Shown: one piece after another, positions 32,620 through 38,767 of the stretch
How positions within the stretch are numbered: the first letter of the stretch is position 1
Layout: each line of letters begins with the position of its first letter
NCBI GenBank assembly: GCA_966211705.1
Contig: CBIHOC010000024.1
Coordinates: 9,319 to 73,318, forward strand
DNA from: an uncultured Chryseobacterium sp.
GTDB taxonomy: Bacteria > Bacteroidota > Bacteroidia > Palsa-965
Reading direction: 5' to 3'
DNA: 64,000 bases
Notes under the pieces: generated by a model
Databases searched by the model: none
Seen by the model: only the letters and a program-made list of their open reading frames with translations
What the model was told of the DNA's origin: nothing
Program-made: the position numbers and the translations under genes

Positions 32620-33354
32620 TTGGATTTGCGGTACGGCTTTAATACGTTTGATGTGATGCACTGGACAGAACAGGCCGACCATCTCATCACAGCCGCGGGC
32701 ATTATTGTCGGCGGCATCTGGGTGTTGTACCGTTTCGGCCTCCACCGCGAGCGCTTCCCGAGCATGGAGATCGTGAACGGCATCAAATACCTCGGCGAGA
32801 ATAAGGAAGAATATCTCCTCGAGCTTTACTGCGTCGTGGAAAACAAAGGCAAAGTGCGGAAATGGGTGGCGCCGCTGGATTTCGAATTGCTGTATCTTAA
32901 GAACAATGAGCCGTTCGTCTGGAACCCGGAGATGAACGACGAGATCAATTTCAACCAGGTGGTGCAGGAGCACGCGCATTACGGGAACCGGAAGTTCTGG
33001 GTTTACCCGGATTGGTATATCCCGTTCGTGGACGGCCAATCGAAAAAGCGGTTCCAGTACCTGATCGCCGTTCCGAAAAGCTGTCATTACCTTTCGCTGA
33101 ATACACGCTTTATCGATTTCAATAACAAAGACAAGGCGGTCGAGCACATCCTGCATTTGCTGAATAAAGAAAGGAAACCGGCAGGCGCGCAGGAAAAAAC
33201 GTGGAACGAAAAGTCGCTGGAAGAAAAAGTGGACGAAGTCAGGAAAAAGAAAACAGATTTCTATTATTCGCAGGTTACGTTGTCGATGGAGGAGATTAAA
33301 AAGAGCAGCGCTGCCGTACCGGTTGAAGGAGAACAGAAGAGCGGCGCAGAATAA
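32620..33354 (+). CDS. Hypothetical single-pass membrane protein. First gene of the uncharacterised three-gene cluster.
   Basis: One predicted TM helix ITAAGIIVGGIWVLYRFGL near the N-terminus, a W/Y-rich soluble domain, and a K/E-rich tail. No known motifs. Confidence 0.5.
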   Translation: MDLRYGFNTFDVMHWTEQADHLITAAGIIVGGIWVLYRFGLHRERFPSMEIVNGIKYLGENKEEYLLELYCVVENKGKVRKWVAPLDFELLYLKNNEPFVWNPEMNDEINFNQVVQEHAHYGNRKFWVYPDWYIPFVDGQSKKRFQYLIAVPKSCHYLSLNTRFIDFNNKDKAVEHILHLLNKERKPAGAQEKTWNEKSLEEKVDEVRKKKTDFYYSQVTLSMEEIKKSSAAVPVEGEQKSGAE

Positions 33355-33461
33355 AATTTTCATCGCGACCACCCCTGCGCATTTTCCCAATCCAACGGCG
33401 GAAATTCCTAATTCCGTTTCTCCGATACGGTTTCACCTTTGGTCACCAACAGACCAAACCC

Positions 33462-36299: not shown

Positions 36300-36346
36300 C
36301 GATGGTTTTATTCGTATTCATTGACAACCGCGGAAAGTTCTGAGCC

Positions 36347-38767
36347 ATGGCACGGAAACAGTTTATTCTCGTGGCGGGCGTAGACTTTGTCAATTTCGAG
36401 CTCGACTTCGGCGCGCTTTGTCAACTGCGCGTAAACGACCTCATCGCGGACCATAAAGGAACAGCCGACCTGCGGTTCAAGATATTCGATGTGCGCCGGG
36501 GGACGATCACGATCATCGAGGTGACAGCTGCGGGCAAACGTATCCCTCCTGTCGTGGACGGCACCGACTTCCGCGAGATCACGAAGAAAGATTACCCGGG
36601 TTTCAAAAAGGGAGAGTTGCTCGGCAACCTGCTGAAAAAAACCGTCTTCAGGGTTATGTCGATAACCGACGTTTACCGGGAAGTGATTTCTCTCGGAAAA
36701 AGCTTCCCGGGCGAACTGATCGAGCTGAGCTTCTTCACTATCTTCAGCAGTCATCGCATTCCACTGGTCAATTCCCCGATTTCCGATGGCGCCGTTCACG
36801 GGAATAAAGCGGCTTTCAAAAAGTTGCCGAAAGGCTCCCGCGACCCGGACGACCCGGATGGCGAGTTCAACCTCGATTTTAAGCCGCCGCGTATGGGCAG
36901 GGAAGACCTCTCGCATTTTCAGGCGGCTTTCCATCCCGACGGTTATGCCTGGATATGGGGCAATGACAGGGGTTTCCTTAGTGATGGCTTGCTGGAGTTC
37001 CTGGACTTTGCGCTCCGGCTCAAAGAGCTGGACGATCCCTCTTCGCCGGACGACCTGCTGATCGGGATCCCCGGAACTGCAAAGCCGGAATCGAAATTTC
37101 TTCTTTTCTGGGTTGAATGGATGCTCTCGTTAAAAGATTACCGGGCGAGCGGTTATAAAGTGCCCCTTAAGCTGATCCGCTACCTGGTTTGTCACTACGC
37201 CAGCCGGCCGCCGGCAGTGCGTCTCAAACAGGCCGCCAACCTCAAAAAAGTGTACGGAACGTTCAGGGATTTCGTCATCGACTTCGATCCGGGCAATAAA
37301 CGTCTTCCTGAAGTTGCAGCTTTCCAGGAGGCCGCACGGTTGGCATTGCAAAAACGATTTAAGCTTCGGTCTGCTCCCCAGGGGAATTACACGGAATTCG
37401 GCGACACGGTTTTTTGCCCGCTTCCATACTTTGATGCGAACGTTTACAAACCGAAGAAAAAAAAGCCGGGAGCAGCGACTTCTGATCAGCCTTCATCGCA
37501 ACCAGCATCCCAGCCCGCATCGCTTCCGAAGCCTGCGCCTCCTGCCGTTCCTTTTACATCCGACTCGCCGCTGCTGAAACCCACGCACCCGATGTTCCGG
37601 CTGAACGCCTATGCGCGACATTACATTTTTGTCGCCGGCGTCGATTACAAATCTTCGGGAGCGAATTTCCTCCAGCTGTGCATGAACCGCGTCGATCATC
37701 TTATCGCCCGCGACGATAACCGGGATACTATGCTGTTCCAGGTGCTCGACGTCGGGTCCGGGCAGGTGATCTTTGTGGAAGTGAAATACGAGACCGGCAC
37801 GATCGCGGAAGAAGGTTTCGTAAAGTCCATCGTCAATGCGCATGCTTCGGTGAAAAAAACCACGGACGACCTGGTGAGATTTGAACAGGTGAAGAATAAC
37901 GACGCGCATTATGAAATACGGACGAATGAGATGGGCGACCGGGAGCGGTTCTTCAGGGGAACGCAGGGCGCGATGCCTGCCGCGGAAATGTACAGGCGCG
38001 TGATCGCGCTCGGGGAAAAATGCCCGGGACGGTTGATGGAGCTGGGCTTTTTCACGCACGGGACCGAAGCCGGGCCGCGGCCGCTGAACTTCCCGGAGGA
38101 ATTGGAAATTTCCGGTGTCCCGGTCGACCCGCTTGCATTTGATCCGTCGCCTCTCGATTTTGACCTGCTCCCCGGTGAGGCCGAACAGGCAGCTTTCCGC
38201 GACGCGTTCCATCCCGGCGGTTACAGCTGGACGTGGGGCTACGATTCCGACCCGGAATTGCGCAAGCTGCTCAAAGCGCTGCTCGACAGCAAAGAATACA
38301 AAGCAGGAGGATTAACGGAAGACACCATTATTACGCTAAAGAACCCGACGCCCCGGCTAAGGCTCTTCGCACAGCGGGTCGCCGGGCTGCTGCCGAAGCG
38401 AAAAGTTCCGCCGCTGAAGATCGAAATGCCGTTCGGGCGCCTGCTGCGTTTTTTTGCGGCGGTGATCAAATCCTCGTACATGTACCATCTGGCGCGGGAA
38501 ACGGGCAAAGATGTTTTCGGCGCGCTCCCGGGAACTGCCGCCGGTCCGGAATCCGGTACACTTTACCCGCTGATGCGTGTCGATCCGGCTTATGCAAAGT
38601 ATTCCGGGTTTTTTCAAACACATTTCGGATTTGAATCCGACCCGGAAAAGAGAGGCTATGGAAAATATATCCCGGATTTTCCCTGGGACGATTCCGATCT
38701 CGCAGGCGTAAAGATCGGGCAGCAGGTACTCGAAGAAGTAAAAGAGTTCCCGGTGGAAGCGGAATAA
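36347..38767 (+). CDS. Large (806 aa) uncharacterised protein made of two homologous ~300-aa halves joined by a Pro/Ser-rich linker
   Basis: Half 1 ILVAGVDFVNF...LRFKIFDVRRGTITIIEV...YREVISLGKSFPGELIELSFFT...AAFHPDGYAWIWGND aligns with half 2 IFVAGVDYKSS...MLFQVLDVGSGQVIFVEV...YRRVIALGEKCPGRLMELGFFT...DAFHPGGYSWTWGYD. Linker KKKKPGAATSDQPSSQPASQPASLPKPAPPAVP. Confidence 0.6.
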   Translation: MARKQFILVAGVDFVNFELDFGALCQLRVNDLIADHKGTADLRFKIFDVRRGTITIIEVTAAGKRIPPVVDGTDFREITKKDYPGFKKGELLGNLLKKTVFRVMSITDVYREVISLGKSFPGELIELSFFTIFSSHRIPLVNSPISDGAVHGNKAAFKKLPKGSRDPDDPDGEFNLDFKPPRMGREDLSHFQAAFHPDGYAWIWGNDRGFLSDGLLEFLDFALRLKELDDPSSPDDLLIGIPGTAKPESKFLLFWVEWMLSLKDYRASGYKVPLKLIRYLVCHYASRPPAVRLKQAANLKKVYGTFRDFVIDFDPGNKRLPEVAAFQEAARLALQKRFKLRSAPQGNYTEFGDTVFCPLPYFDANVYKPKKKKPGAATSDQPSSQPASQPASLPKPAPPAVPFTSDSPLLKPTHPMFRLNAYARHYIFVAGVDYKSSGANFLQLCMNRVDHLIARDDNRDTMLFQVLDVGSGQVIFVEVKYETGTIAEEGFVKSIVNAHASVKKTTDDLVRFEQVKNNDAHYEIRTNEMGDRERFFRGTQGAMPAAEMYRRVIALGEKCPGRLMELGFFTHGTEAGPRPLNFPEELEISGVPVDPLAFDPSPLDFDLLPGEAEQAAFRDAFHPGGYSWTWGYDSDPELRKLLKALLDSKEYKAGGLTEDTIITLKNPTPRLRLFAQRVAGLLPKRKVPPLKIEMPFGRLLRFFAAVIKSSYMYHLARETGKDVFGALPGTAAGPESGTLYPLMRVDPAYAKYSGFFQTHFGFESDPEKRGYGKYIPDFPWDDSDLAGVKIGQQVLEEVKEFPVEAE

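What the first reader, a model, noticed from the sequence alone, without database searches (positions are those of the whole stretch)
32620..38767. Three-gene cluster of a single-pass membrane protein plus two giant uncharacterised cytoplasmic proteins: candidate undescribed system
Three co-directional genes with short gaps (107 nt and 47 nt) form an apparent operon divergent from pepP. The products are a 244-aa protein with one N-terminal TM helix and two proteins of 945 and 806 aa. Neither large protein shows a nucleotide-binding, nuclease, protease or secretion-signal motif that I can recognise. The 945-aa protein has an unusual highly charged E/R-rich central segment of about 135 aa and aromatic-rich flanking domains. 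A large protein plus a small membrane protein, unannotatable and next to an accessory-type region, is the usual shape of recently discovered defence or toxin systems. Nothing in the sequence ties it to any named system.
Basis: inference. Interest (0 to 1): 0.8.

Follow-up and report, generated by a model that had tools for sequence, protein, structure and literature searches.

The report
Two-gene carrier plus swappable-enzyme cassette
Two of the three genes form one copy of a widespread, undescribed two-gene cassette, found in many bacterial phyla and a haloarchaeon, in which a conserved ~1000-aa protein of unknown fold is followed by an interchangeable toxin-like enzyme; here the enzyme is a duplicated caspase-fold protein that has lost its catalytic cysteine, and the small membrane gene is unrelated.

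Summary
All three ORFs exist as described, but the functional unit is two genes.

- **The small gene is not part of it.** A relative with ~95.5% identical flanks keeps the 244-aa gene and lacks exactly window 33355-38776 (both large genes). More distant relatives carry the pair without the small gene.
- **The 945-aa protein is a new family.** It matches no Pfam, NCBIfam, PADLOC, PHROG or PDB entry, and its model has no structural relative beyond a generic beta-sandwich. The family has about 4,800 clusters at 50% identity across many bacterial phyla and one haloarchaeon.
- **The downstream gene is swappable.** In 71 of 82 loci a same-strand gene follows (median gap 17 nt), from unrelated classes: PAD arginine deiminase, LodA lysine oxidase, PT-TG pre-toxin, patatin, PLD, M23 peptidase and a clan-CD (caspase-fold) module. 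Classes are polyphyletic on the large protein's tree.
- **The 806-aa protein is a degenerate effector.** It is a tandem duplicate of the clan-CD module with the catalytic Cys lost in both halves.
- **Context is uninformative.** I found no conserved immunity gene, signal peptide, defence-island context or phage association.

Best reading, inferred only: a conserved, non-enzymatic, possibly membrane-inserting carrier paired with a swappable cell-damaging enzyme. Whether it kills the producer or other cells is unresolved.

The parts
33355..38776 (+). The accessory two-gene cassette: upstream spacer, g2, g3 and 9 nt. It is present in the window and absent from a ~95.5%-identical relative.
   Evidence: blastn of L094 against the window: L094 4184-10702 matches window 26839-33354 and L094 10723-14357 matches window 38777-42412, with 20 bp in place of 5,422 bp. 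Both junctions carry GC[A/G]GAATAAA at the stop codons of g1 and g3.
33462..36299 (+). g2, 945 aa: the conserved 'carrier' protein of the cassette. New family with no known domain.
33462..34496 (+). g2 residues 1-345: mainly helical N-terminal region. It is the least conserved part, and many homologues only align from about residue 260. The extreme N-terminus carries a conserved FRF...RPA motif.
   Evidence: AF2 secondary structure. tblastn coverage of the query. Consensus and near-invariant R8 and R13.
34497..35111 (+). g2 residues 346-550: two ~30-residue beta-strands (352-380, 518-547) bracketing the charged insert. Contains the family signature motifs AH[VI]ENV..GE and NYG.R...F.VPEPA.
   Evidence: AF2 model. 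Invariant columns D358, Y369, E378, N379, E384, R419, N512, Y522, G537, R539, P547, P549. Family alignment.
   Evidence: 43% D/E/K/R. Low-confidence helices 417-434 and 461-482 in the model. Alpha-periodic hydrophobicity at 465-500.
34737..34853 (+). g2 residues 426-464: conserved amphipathic beta-hairpin (L.AGL.VSG.YGP.V.F.AS), a candidate membrane-insertion element.
   Evidence: Highest family-averaged beta-periodicity moment in the protein: 2.0 against a protein-wide mean of 0.63 with sd 0.34. Conserved across phyla. pLDDT below 50, so probably flexible. The membrane role is inference.
35259..35591 (+). g2 residues ~600-710: beta-sandwich (jelly-roll-like) domain.
   Evidence: Strands 609-710 in the model. 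This is the only part that finds structural matches, and they are generic sandwiches of ~100 residues.
35595..36296 (+). g2 residues 712-945: long helices followed by the most conserved alpha/beta C-terminal domain (F[FL]E.AFEW, RPGFE). It also occurs in more distant ~880-aa proteins that keep the same gene layout.
   Evidence: Consensus. Plasmid hits H12-H15 cover only this region and have a downstream partner gene.
36347..38767 (+). g3, 806 aa: the variable partner of the cassette. Here it is a tandem duplication of a clan-CD (caspase-fold) module, degenerate at the catalytic dyad.
   Evidence: Single-copy modules of 330-375 aa in other phyla match both halves. DNA-level internal repeat 36926-36966 / 38204-38244 (D5). 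Only 6 close homologues, all next to a g2 homologue.
36347..37471 (+). g3 N-terminal module (residues 1-375). Both dyad positions are lost (SFFTIF in place of SFFSHG; WGN in place of WGC).
   Evidence: Alignments.
37457..37588 (+). g3 linker (residues 371-414), rich in Pro, Ser, Ala and Gln.
   Evidence: Sequence KKKPGAATSDQPSSQPASQPASLPKPAPPAVPFTSDSPLLKPTH.
37589..38764 (+). g3 C-terminal module (residues 415-806). Caspase-like fold; His kept (FFTHG), Cys replaced by Tyr (WGY).
32620..33354 (+). g1, 244 aa (232 aa from the ATG at 32656): single-pass membrane protein with very few relatives. It is NOT part of the cassette and is listed only because the finding included it.
   Evidence: Kept in L094 without g2 and g3. 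Absent from L088, L089 and all other loci. Its 90% cluster has 3 members. No family hit.

Best explanation
**Shown**
- g2 (945 aa) and g3 (806 aa) are one instance of a self-contained, horizontally scattered two-gene cassette.
- Gene 1 of the cassette is a conserved ~1000-aa protein with no nucleotide-binding or catalytic motif that I could detect and no known fold.
- Gene 2 is interchangeable. It is drawn from unrelated families, most of which modify or destroy membranes, cell wall or proteins: patatin, PLD, M23 and other peptidoglycan hydrolases, clan-CD peptidase, PAD, LodA oxidase and PT-TG toxin.
- g1 is not part of the cassette.

**Inferred mechanism**
- The large protein is a structural carrier. 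It oligomerises and inserts its conserved amphipathic beta-hairpin (residues ~426-464, held between charged helices and very long beta-strands) into a membrane. This gives the leaderless partner enzyme access to its target, and the outcome is cell damage or death.
- I favour action from the inside on the producer's own cytoplasmic membrane. That would work like gasdermin or a holin-endolysin pair, serving as an abortive-infection or suicide module, or as altruistic release of the enzyme. This reading fits four observations: no signal peptides, no immunity genes, peptidoglycan hydrolases among the partners, and conservation of the same full-length protein across Gram-negative, Gram-positive and archaeal envelopes.
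- In the window the partner has lost its catalytic Cys in both copies. This instance either uses g3 non-catalytically or is functionally decaying.

The confidence given is for the mechanism. For the two-gene modular architecture alone I would give about 0.85.
For: **Architecture**
- 71 of 82 loci have a same-strand +1 ORF of at least 200 aa, with median gap 17 nt; 60 have a gap of 60 nt or less.
- The +1 genes fall into at least 10 unrelated classes with no shared domain (hhalign, all probabilities below 3%).
- Pfam identifies PAD, LodA_N/C, PT-TG, Patatin, PLDc, Peptidase_M23, Amidase_3+SPOR and OmpA. An archaeal locus has a patatin partner.
- Partner classes are polyphyletic on the g2 tree.
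- No other neighbour is conserved except LodB after LodA.
- There is a clean presence/absence of exactly g2 and g3 between ~95.5%-identical genomes.

**Carrier is not a recognisable enzyme or sensor**
- No family or PDB hit even at profile level.
- Invariant residues are mostly aromatic, Gly or Pro.

**Membrane element**
- The strongest conserved beta-amphipathic signal of the protein lies at 426-464. It is conserved across phyla, sits in a low-pLDDT loop flanked by ~30-residue strands, and a beta-sandwich domain lies downstream.

**Inside-out direction**
- No signal peptide or TM segment on g2, g3 or the partner N-termini read.
- No conserved immunity-like gene.
- Distribution spans many bacterial phyla and a haloarchaeon.
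- Essentially absent from phages.
- The closest solved relative of g3, Tce1, is a putative Cys-protease effector that also has no immunity gene (PMC13323088).
Against: - No structural similarity to gasdermins, aerolysin- or PA-type toxins, holins or any other pore former.
- The hairpin arms are short (about 16-18 residues), and the AF2 model in this region has low confidence.
- There is no experimental datum of any kind.
- PAD, LodA and PT-TG partners are better known as secreted or extracellular factors than as suicide effectors.
- There is no PADLOC hit and no clear defence-island context. Neighbours are mostly housekeeping, which is unusual for defence systems.
- No sensor-type domain (NTPase, nucleic-acid binding) was found in the carrier.
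- The window's own partner lacks the catalytic Cys, so this copy cannot work as a Cys-protease effector.
- The 80 loci studied are those most similar to the window protein, and ORFs were called naively, so class frequencies are not representative.
Confidence: 0.4

Rival explanations
1. Outward-acting binary (AB-like) toxin. The ~1000-aa protein is released, for example by lysis. It binds a target cell through its beta-sandwich domain, forms a beta-barrel pore with the amphipathic hairpin, and delivers the downstream enzyme into a competitor or a eukaryotic predator or host.
For: - The partner repertoire is typical of secreted or injected effectors: PT-TG pre-toxin, patatin, PLD, M23, LodA antimicrobial oxidase (LodA role in PMC4417212).
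- The closest solved structure to g3 is the T6SS effector Tce1, whose paralogue Tce2 is toxic to yeast.
- g2 has an amphipathic hairpin and a beta-sandwich.
- Copies occur on a Bacillus thuringiensis plasmid and in Vibrio penaeicida and Xanthomonas.
- Absence of immunity genes is expected if the targets are eukaryotes.
Against: - No signal peptide or secretion-system genes nearby.
- The same full-length carrier occurs in Gram-negative, Gram-positive and archaeal hosts, which is hard to reconcile with export across different envelopes.
- Peptidoglycan hydrolase partners make no sense against eukaryotes, and antibacterial effectors would need immunity genes, which were not found.
- No fold similarity to any known B component.
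Confidence: 0.27
2. Non-lethal physiological pairing. The large protein is a scaffold, cage, chaperone or regulator that sequesters, localises or activates a potentially dangerous enzyme for the producer's own use, such as wall remodelling, developmental lysis, biofilm dispersal or protein modification.
For: - Flanks are housekeeping-type in most loci.
- One partner is a CwlC-like Amidase_3+SPOR autolysin.
- LodA-type oxidases mediate biofilm cell death and dispersal (PMC4417212).
- The carrier lacks catalytic motifs.
- Sequestration would explain why no immunity gene is needed.
- The catalytically dead partner is still kept as a full-length tandem in at least 7 Bacteroidota genomes.
Against: - One conserved scaffold serving at least 10 structurally unrelated enzymes with no shared motif is hard to explain.
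- The cassette is dispensable between near-identical genomes, patchy, plasmid-borne and repeatedly re-assorted. That is the behaviour of conflict systems rather than physiology.
Confidence: 0.15
3. One reading: a three-gene operon in which the single-pass membrane protein g1 works with the two large proteins, as in defence systems that have a small membrane effector.
For: The genes are co-directional with gaps of 107 and 47 nt. g1 has one TM helix.
Against: - L094 keeps g1 followed directly by the next gene, with g2 and g3 precisely absent.
- L088 and L089 have g2 and g3 without g1.
- No g1 homologue occurs in about 80 other loci.
- No small membrane gene recurs next to the family.
Confidence: 0.03

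Closest known systems
Clan CD cysteine peptidases (caspases/metacaspases C14, legumain/GPI transamidase C13, gingipains C25, clostripain C11, CHAT) and the DUF4347-type T6SS effector Tce1 (PDB 9qpe) - comparison for g3
   Different: - No sequence-level match to any Pfam clan-CD family.
- It has an extra helical C-terminal subdomain and a conserved acidic RDPDDKD loop.
- The window protein is a tandem duplicate in which Cys is replaced (Tyr in one half, Asn in the other) and the N-half also lacks His. It is probably not an active Cys protease.
- There is no T6SS context.
Binary AB toxins and Tc toxins (anthrax PA with LF/EF, C2/iota, Vip1/Vip2; TcA with TcB-TcC)
   Same: Adjacent genes for a large non-enzymatic component and an enzymatic component. 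g2 has a conserved amphipathic beta-hairpin flanked by long strands, and a beta-sandwich domain. Like Tc and large clostridial toxins, there is no signal peptide.
   Different: No sequence or fold similarity. The partner enzymes are far more diverse and include peptidoglycan hydrolases. The distribution includes archaea. Nothing shows export.
Polymorphic toxin systems (conserved trafficking part with swappable toxin, PT-TG and other pre-toxin domains, followed by immunity genes)
   Same: The swapping logic is the same: one conserved component and many alternative toxic enzymes re-assorted by recombination. One partner class carries a PT-TG domain.
   Different: The toxins are separate proteins rather than C-terminal tips of the conserved protein. 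Within the PT-TG class there is no hypervariable C-terminus, and no conserved immunity gene follows. No known trafficking domain (LXG, Rhs, PAAR, MuF and others) is detected.
Two-gene anti-phage or suicide modules with variable effectors, and pore-plus-enzyme lysis pairs (bacterial gasdermin with protease; CBASS with patatin effectors; holin with endolysin)
   Same: A compact operon of a conserved large protein and a variable killing effector. It needs no immunity gene, is patchy and horizontally transferred, is present or absent between close strains, and occurs on plasmids. Patatin, PLD and caspase-like effectors recur in defence systems.
   Different: No PADLOC model matches. No gasdermin, holin, NTPase or cyclase domain is present. 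There is no defence-island context. PAD, LodA and PT-TG partners are not known defence effectors.

Membership tests
Clan CD cysteine peptidases (for g3) | Caspase/hemoglobinase alpha/beta fold | tested here: met
Clan CD cysteine peptidases (for g3) | Catalytic His then Cys dyad at the ends of consecutive strands | tested here: not met
   Single-copy relatives have SHG...WGC. The window's C-half has THG...WGY and the N-half has TIF...WGN. The dyad assignment rests on motif order and fold, not on a residue-level superposition.
Clan CD cysteine peptidases (for g3) | Sequence match to a curated family (Peptidase_C14, C13, C25, C11, CHAT, DUF4347) | tested here: not met
   No Pfam or NCBIfam hit at E<=1. 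No PDB sequence hit.
Known anti-phage defence systems (PADLOC-DB v2) | HMM match of a component to a known or candidate system | tested here: not met
   0 families for g1, g2 and g3 at E<=1.
Known anti-phage defence systems (PADLOC-DB v2) | Location in defence islands (enrichment of defence genes nearby) | tested here: inconclusive
   Among 148 neighbours from about 40 loci there are only scattered single hits, mostly to generic helicase or regulator models. No family recurs more than twice. The Pfam view is mostly housekeeping. I computed no background rate.
Binary toxin B components (PA/C2-II/Vip1 type) and other beta-pore-forming toxins | Sequence or fold homology to a known pore-forming or translocation component | tested here: not met
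Binary toxin B components (PA/C2-II/Vip1 type) and other beta-pore-forming toxins | Amphipathic beta-hairpin able to span a membrane | tested here: inconclusive
   Residues 426-464 give the strongest conserved 2-residue hydrophobic periodicity in the protein and are conserved across phyla. The arms are short, and insertion cannot be tested with these tools.
Binary toxin B components (PA/C2-II/Vip1 type) and other beta-pore-forming toxins | Secretion signal | tested here: not met
   The g2 N-terminus is MTGETIFRFFSTRPAAPLRL, with no hydrophobic leader. No Por_Secre_tail or other export domain.
Polymorphic toxin systems | Recognised trafficking or pre-toxin domain | tested here: not met
   None in g2 or g3. 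PT-TG occurs only in one partner class found in other genomes, at 30.8 bits against a cut-off of 23.5.
Polymorphic toxin systems | Variable C-terminal toxin tip on a conserved body, followed by a cognate immunity gene | tested here: not met
   PT-TG partners are 35-70% identical along their whole length, with no variable tip. Downstream ORFs share no similarity. No conserved small neighbour was found in 75 loci.
T6SS cargo effectors (Tce1-like) | Association with Hcp, VgrG or a T6SS cluster | tested here: not met
   No T6SS family among the called genes within about 9 kb upstream and 5 kb downstream of g3 or among 148 neighbours elsewhere. The rest of the genome was not examined.
Bacterial gasdermin-protease modules | Gasdermin pore-forming domain next to a protease that cleaves it | tested here: not met
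   No gasdermin match by Pfam, PADLOC or fold for g2. The partner has a protease fold here but is inactive, and in most loci it is not a protease.

The most novel reading that the evidence does not exclude
The g2 family is the core of a new cell-killing system found in bacteria and at least one archaeon. It would be a new class of membrane-breaching carrier or pore protein, working like gasdermin or anthrax PA but with an unrelated fold. It would pair with any of a dozen or more unrelated enzymes (PAD, LodA, phospholipases, wall hydrolases, caspase-fold peptidases) and would give bacterial PAD-type arginine deiminases and leaderless LodA oxidases their first functional context.
Probability: 0.3. 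Interest if true: 0.9.

Novelty: categorically new. Interest (0 to 1): 0.78.

Why it matters
- A family of about 4,800 clusters at 50% identity, spread over many bacterial phyla and a haloarchaeon, has no Pfam or NCBIfam model, no solved structure and no mention in the papers I could search.
- Its gene-pair logic, one invariant partner with many swappable destructive enzymes, is the signature of conflict systems (toxins and defence).
- If the carrier breaches membranes, it would define a new pore-former or translocator class.
- It would also explain several long-standing orphans: how leaderless LodA-type antimicrobial oxidases and other leaderless enzymes reach their targets, and what vertebrate-type PAD enzymes do in bacteria.
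- The pair seems to have escaped guilt-by-association discovery because it does not sit in defence islands.
- Practically, it offers a compact two-gene module with a plug-in effector slot.
- For this window specifically, it shows a lineage in which the effector was duplicated and lost its nucleophile. This is a natural experiment on what the carrier does without an active enzyme.

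Tried and rejected
1. **Sequence libraries for all three proteins.** Pfam, NCBIfam, PADLOC, PHROGs and PDB gave only sub-threshold noise, for example HflC at E 0.17 over the charged segment. A profile of 45 homologues against PDB and a member-wise Pfam scan also gave nothing.
3. **g1 as part of the system.** Rejected.
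4. **A shared adaptor or targeting region among partner classes.** hhalign gave all probabilities below 3%. Weak in-register matches at the first ~33 residues probably come from ORF starts that I extended into the conserved 3' end of g2.
5. **Co-variation of the g2 N-terminal region with partner class.** Single-linkage clustering was uninformative. The tree shows polyphyly instead.
6. **Classic toxin-immunity pattern in the PT-TG class.** Not found.
7. **Other conserved neighbours.** None except LodB.
8. **Defence-island or mobile-element context.** Not evident. No flanking long repeats at the indel, only 8-10 nt of microhomology.
9. **Phage origin.** No GenBank phage hit and 1 of 2.9 million viral contigs.
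10. **Promoter and terminator scan.** At background level, and sigma-70 rules do not apply well to Bacteroidota.
11. **Literature.** Searches by partner combination, by accession, and within the LodA and PAD evolution papers found no description of the family.

Full report
**1. What is in the window**

Three + strand ORFs are present as described, divergent from a Peptidase_M24 (pepP) gene:
- g1, 32620-33354, 244 aa. Public gene calls start at the ATG at 32656, giving 232 aa.
- g2, 33462-36299, 945 aa.
- g3, 36347-38767, 806 aa.

g1 has one hydrophobic helix at residues 23-41. g2 has a charged segment at 384-505 that is 43% D/E/K/R. Neither large protein has a leader peptide or a TM segment. 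None of the three matches Pfam, NCBIfam, PADLOC, PHROGs or PDB sequences above noise.

**2. The unit is two genes, not three**

- tblastn of g1 finds nothing in about 80 loci that encode g2 homologues.
- In a more distant Bacteroidota relative (L089) the same chromosomal site reads pepP (reverse), then a 932-aa gene, an 812-aa gene and sdhCAB, with no g1. L088 also has only the pair.
- The decisive case is L094. Its flanks are about 95.5% identical to the window, and its gene order is GH15, pepP, g1, a 150-aa gene, a 7TMR-DISM sensor and sdhC.
- In L094, window 33355-38776 (5,422 bp) is replaced by 20 bp. That interval runs from just after the g1 stop codon to 9 nt after the g3 stop codon.
- Both junctions carry GC[A/G]GAATAAA. 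This suggests a microhomology-mediated deletion in L094 of a pair that was ancestral at the pepP-sdhC site.

So g1 persists without the pair, and the pair occurs without g1. All close g3 homologues that could be placed sit next to a g2 homologue.

**3. g2 belongs to a large family that none of the searched resources describes**

- The word-indexed search found 49 relatives, all unnamed and without Pfam domains.
- A pattern plus tblastn scan of one genome per species found at least 561 loci.
- An exhaustive profile search of 1.84 billion representatives found 4,810 proteins at E<=1e-3 and 3,109 at E<=1e-30. Most are full-length at 950-1,100 aa.
- By record title, hosts include Bacteroidota, Actinomycetota, Bacillota, alpha-, beta- and gamma-Proteobacteria, Cyanobacteria, Chloroflexota, Acidobacteriota, Planctomycetota, Myxococcota, Nitrospirota, Fibrobacterota and others.
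- Copies also lie on a B. thuringiensis plasmid, on Sinorhizobium megaplasmids and on a Natronorubrum (haloarchaeal) megaplasmid.
- The family is absent from GenBank phages and occurs once among 2.9 million viral contigs.

The AF2 model (pLDDT 73.7, pTM 0.51) shows five parts:
- a helical N-terminal region (1-345);
- two ~30-residue strands (352-380 and 518-547) that bracket the charged insert;
- a beta-sandwich (~600-710);
- long helices;
- a highly conserved alpha/beta C-terminal domain.

**4. The gene after g2 is conserved in position but not in kind**

In 71 of 82 loci a same-strand ORF of at least 200 aa follows. The median gap is 17 nt, and 60 loci have a gap of 60 nt or less. These +1 proteins fall into unrelated classes.

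| Partner class | Length (aa) | Loci |
|---|---|---|
| PAD arginine deiminase | ~930 | 13 |
| 'Module X' (the g3 type) | 330-375 single, ~800 tandem | 11 |
| Unannotated | ~770 | 9 |
| LodA lysine-epsilon-oxidase, followed by a LodB-like gene in 4 of the 8 | ~600 | 8 |
| PT-TG pre-toxin | ~615 | 7 |
| Patatin | 427-556 | 3, plus the archaeal locus |
| PLD | ~700 | 2 |
| M23 peptidase | 763 | 2 |
| Amidase_3+SPOR; OmpA-like; FAD oxidoreductase | various | 1 each |
| Other unannotated classes | various | several |

- By reading the sequences, the PAD, patatin and PLD representatives keep their canonical active-site motifs: HCGTN, then GGGxKG / GxSxG / DGG, and two HxK...D motifs. These motif assignments rest on my knowledge of those families.
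- Profile-profile comparison finds no shared domain between classes (all probabilities below 3%).
- No other neighbour recurs.
- On a neighbour-joining tree of g2 homologues the partner classes are polyphyletic. Module X appears in at least 4 clades, and PAD and PT-TG in at least 3 each. Partners have therefore been exchanged repeatedly.
- More distant ~880-aa proteins that share only the C-terminal domain keep the same layout of a large gene followed by a downstream gene.

Two caveats apply. The 80 loci are the ones most similar to the window protein, so class frequencies are not representative. ORFs were also called mechanically.

**5. g3 is a degenerate tandem caspase-fold protein**

- Single-copy module X proteins of 330-375 aa from Bacillus, Streptomyces, Microbacterium and Tsukamurella align to both halves of g3. 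The two halves still share a 41-nt DNA repeat (D5).
- All single-copy members have S-H-G after one strand and W-G-C after the next, which is the clan-CD order.
- Nearly all of the tandem Bacteroidota versions have lost the Cys in both halves. In the window the C-half reads THG...WGY and the N-half reads TIF...WGN. The one exception is the C-half of L002's partner, which keeps SHG...YGC.
- One relative fuses module X to M15 peptidoglycan-peptidase domains.
- Tce1, the best structural match, is described as a putative Cys-protease T6SS effector with no immunity gene. Its paralogue Tce2 is toxic to yeast (PMC13323088).
- The tandem architecture is kept at full length in at least 7 genomes at 24-45% identity. 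It therefore looks retained rather than simply decaying.

**6. Context**

Flanks differ from locus to locus and are mostly housekeeping. Among 148 neighbours from about 40 loci, no Pfam family recurs more than 3 times. PADLOC hits are scattered single matches to generic models. The PT-TG partners have no hypervariable tip, and no conserved ORF follows them. So I see no immunity genes, no defence island, no secretion system and no recurrent mobile-element genes. The cassette behaves as a self-contained, dispensable two-gene insert.

**7. Mechanism (inferred)**

- The family-averaged hydrophobicity profile has its strongest 2-residue periodicity at residues 426-464. The moment is 2.0 against a protein-wide mean of 0.63 with sd 0.34.
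- The underlying motif, L.AGL.VSG.YGP.V.F.AS, is conserved from Bacteroidota to Actinomycetota.
- It lies in a low-confidence loop between charged, alpha-periodic arms, and the whole insert is bracketed by very long strands.
- This layout resembles the insertion hairpins of beta-pore formers, although no fold homology supports the comparison.

The other observations are the absence of leader peptides and immunity genes, the conservation of the same protein across different cell envelopes, and partners that attack membrane, wall or proteins. Taken together with the hairpin, I think the most likely model is a membrane-breaching carrier paired with a plug-in enzyme.
- I favour action from inside the producer, as a suicide or abortive-infection module or as altruistic release. 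My confidence is about 0.4.
- The main rival is an outward AB-type toxin, at about 0.27. It is supported by the secreted-toxin flavour of the PT-TG, LodA, patatin and PLD partners and by the Bt plasmid copy. It is weakened by the wall hydrolase partners, the lack of immunity genes and the archaeal copy.
- A non-lethal scaffold or regulator role is less likely, at about 0.15.

**8. Novelty**

The swapping logic is familiar from polymorphic toxins and defence systems. The conserved core, however, has no detectable relation to any described family or fold. Searches of the accessible literature, including the LodA and PAD evolution papers, found no description of it. I therefore rate it categorically new, and everything beyond the architecture remains inference.

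Noticed in passing
window 38824-39312 (+), called as 150 aa from 38860: Small gene with very few relatives directly after g3. It has no family hit and is kept next to g1 in the relative that lacks g2 and g3. The best terminator-like hairpin of the region (39304-39321) follows it.
   Followed up: partly
window 39400-41037 (+): 7TMR-DISM sensor. It appears to contain a histidine-kinase H-box (IAHEMQNPLNF), yet the ORF ends about 70 residues later and only the 7TMR-DISM_7TM family is on record for it. It may be a sensor kinase without an ATPase domain.
   Followed up: no
window 48087-56417 (+) and 58752-62885 (-): Two very large ORFs of 2,776 aa and 1,377 aa elsewhere in the window. GC drops from about 0.60 to about 0.48 across 56-64 kb. 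Not examined.
   Followed up: no
window 33346-33357 and 38759-38770; L094 10695-10725: The same GC[A/G]GAATAAA sequence sits at the stop codons of g1 and g3 and marks both edges of the 5.4-kb presence/absence difference. g1 ends in ...GAE and g3 ends in ...EAE.
   Followed up: yes
L001 13327-16113, L009 11002-13770, L031 2939-5794 and 10 other loci: Vertebrate-type PAD (PF03068) proteins of about 930 aa lie immediately downstream of g2 homologues in Actinomadura, Nonomuraea, Amycolatopsis, Bacteroidota and a cyanobacterium. The paper on PAD horizontal transfer (PMC8826395) contains none of the gene-context terms I searched for.
   Followed up: partly
L026, L050, L069, L079 (+1 and +2 genes): Leaderless LodA-like lysine oxidases with a LodB-like gene follow a g2 homologue. 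The LodA survey paper (PMC4417212) never uses the word 'upstream', and the gene-context passages I read do not mention a large preceding gene.
   Followed up: partly
L091 4690-9745 (Natronorubrum bangense megaplasmid): A haloarchaeal copy. The g2 homologue is annotated as two CDS (1,147 aa and 71 aa), which may reflect a frameshift. A patatin-like phospholipase follows it.
   Followed up: no
P0062 (618 aa, JGI metagenome): Module X fused to Peptidase_M15 domains (PF05951, PF08291). This links the caspase-fold module to cell-wall peptidases.
   Followed up: no
L004 4311-13480: The most distant g2 homologue (P0049, 25% identity) lies in a mobile element with an integrase, Fic plus HTH, a relaxase and MobC. 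Its partners are 340 aa and 140 aa with no confident family.
   Followed up: no
g2 residues 1-15, window 33462-33506: The extreme N-terminus (M..E..FRF...RPA, with R8 and R13 at least 90% conserved) is conserved in family members that keep the N-terminal region. Its role is unknown.
   Followed up: no
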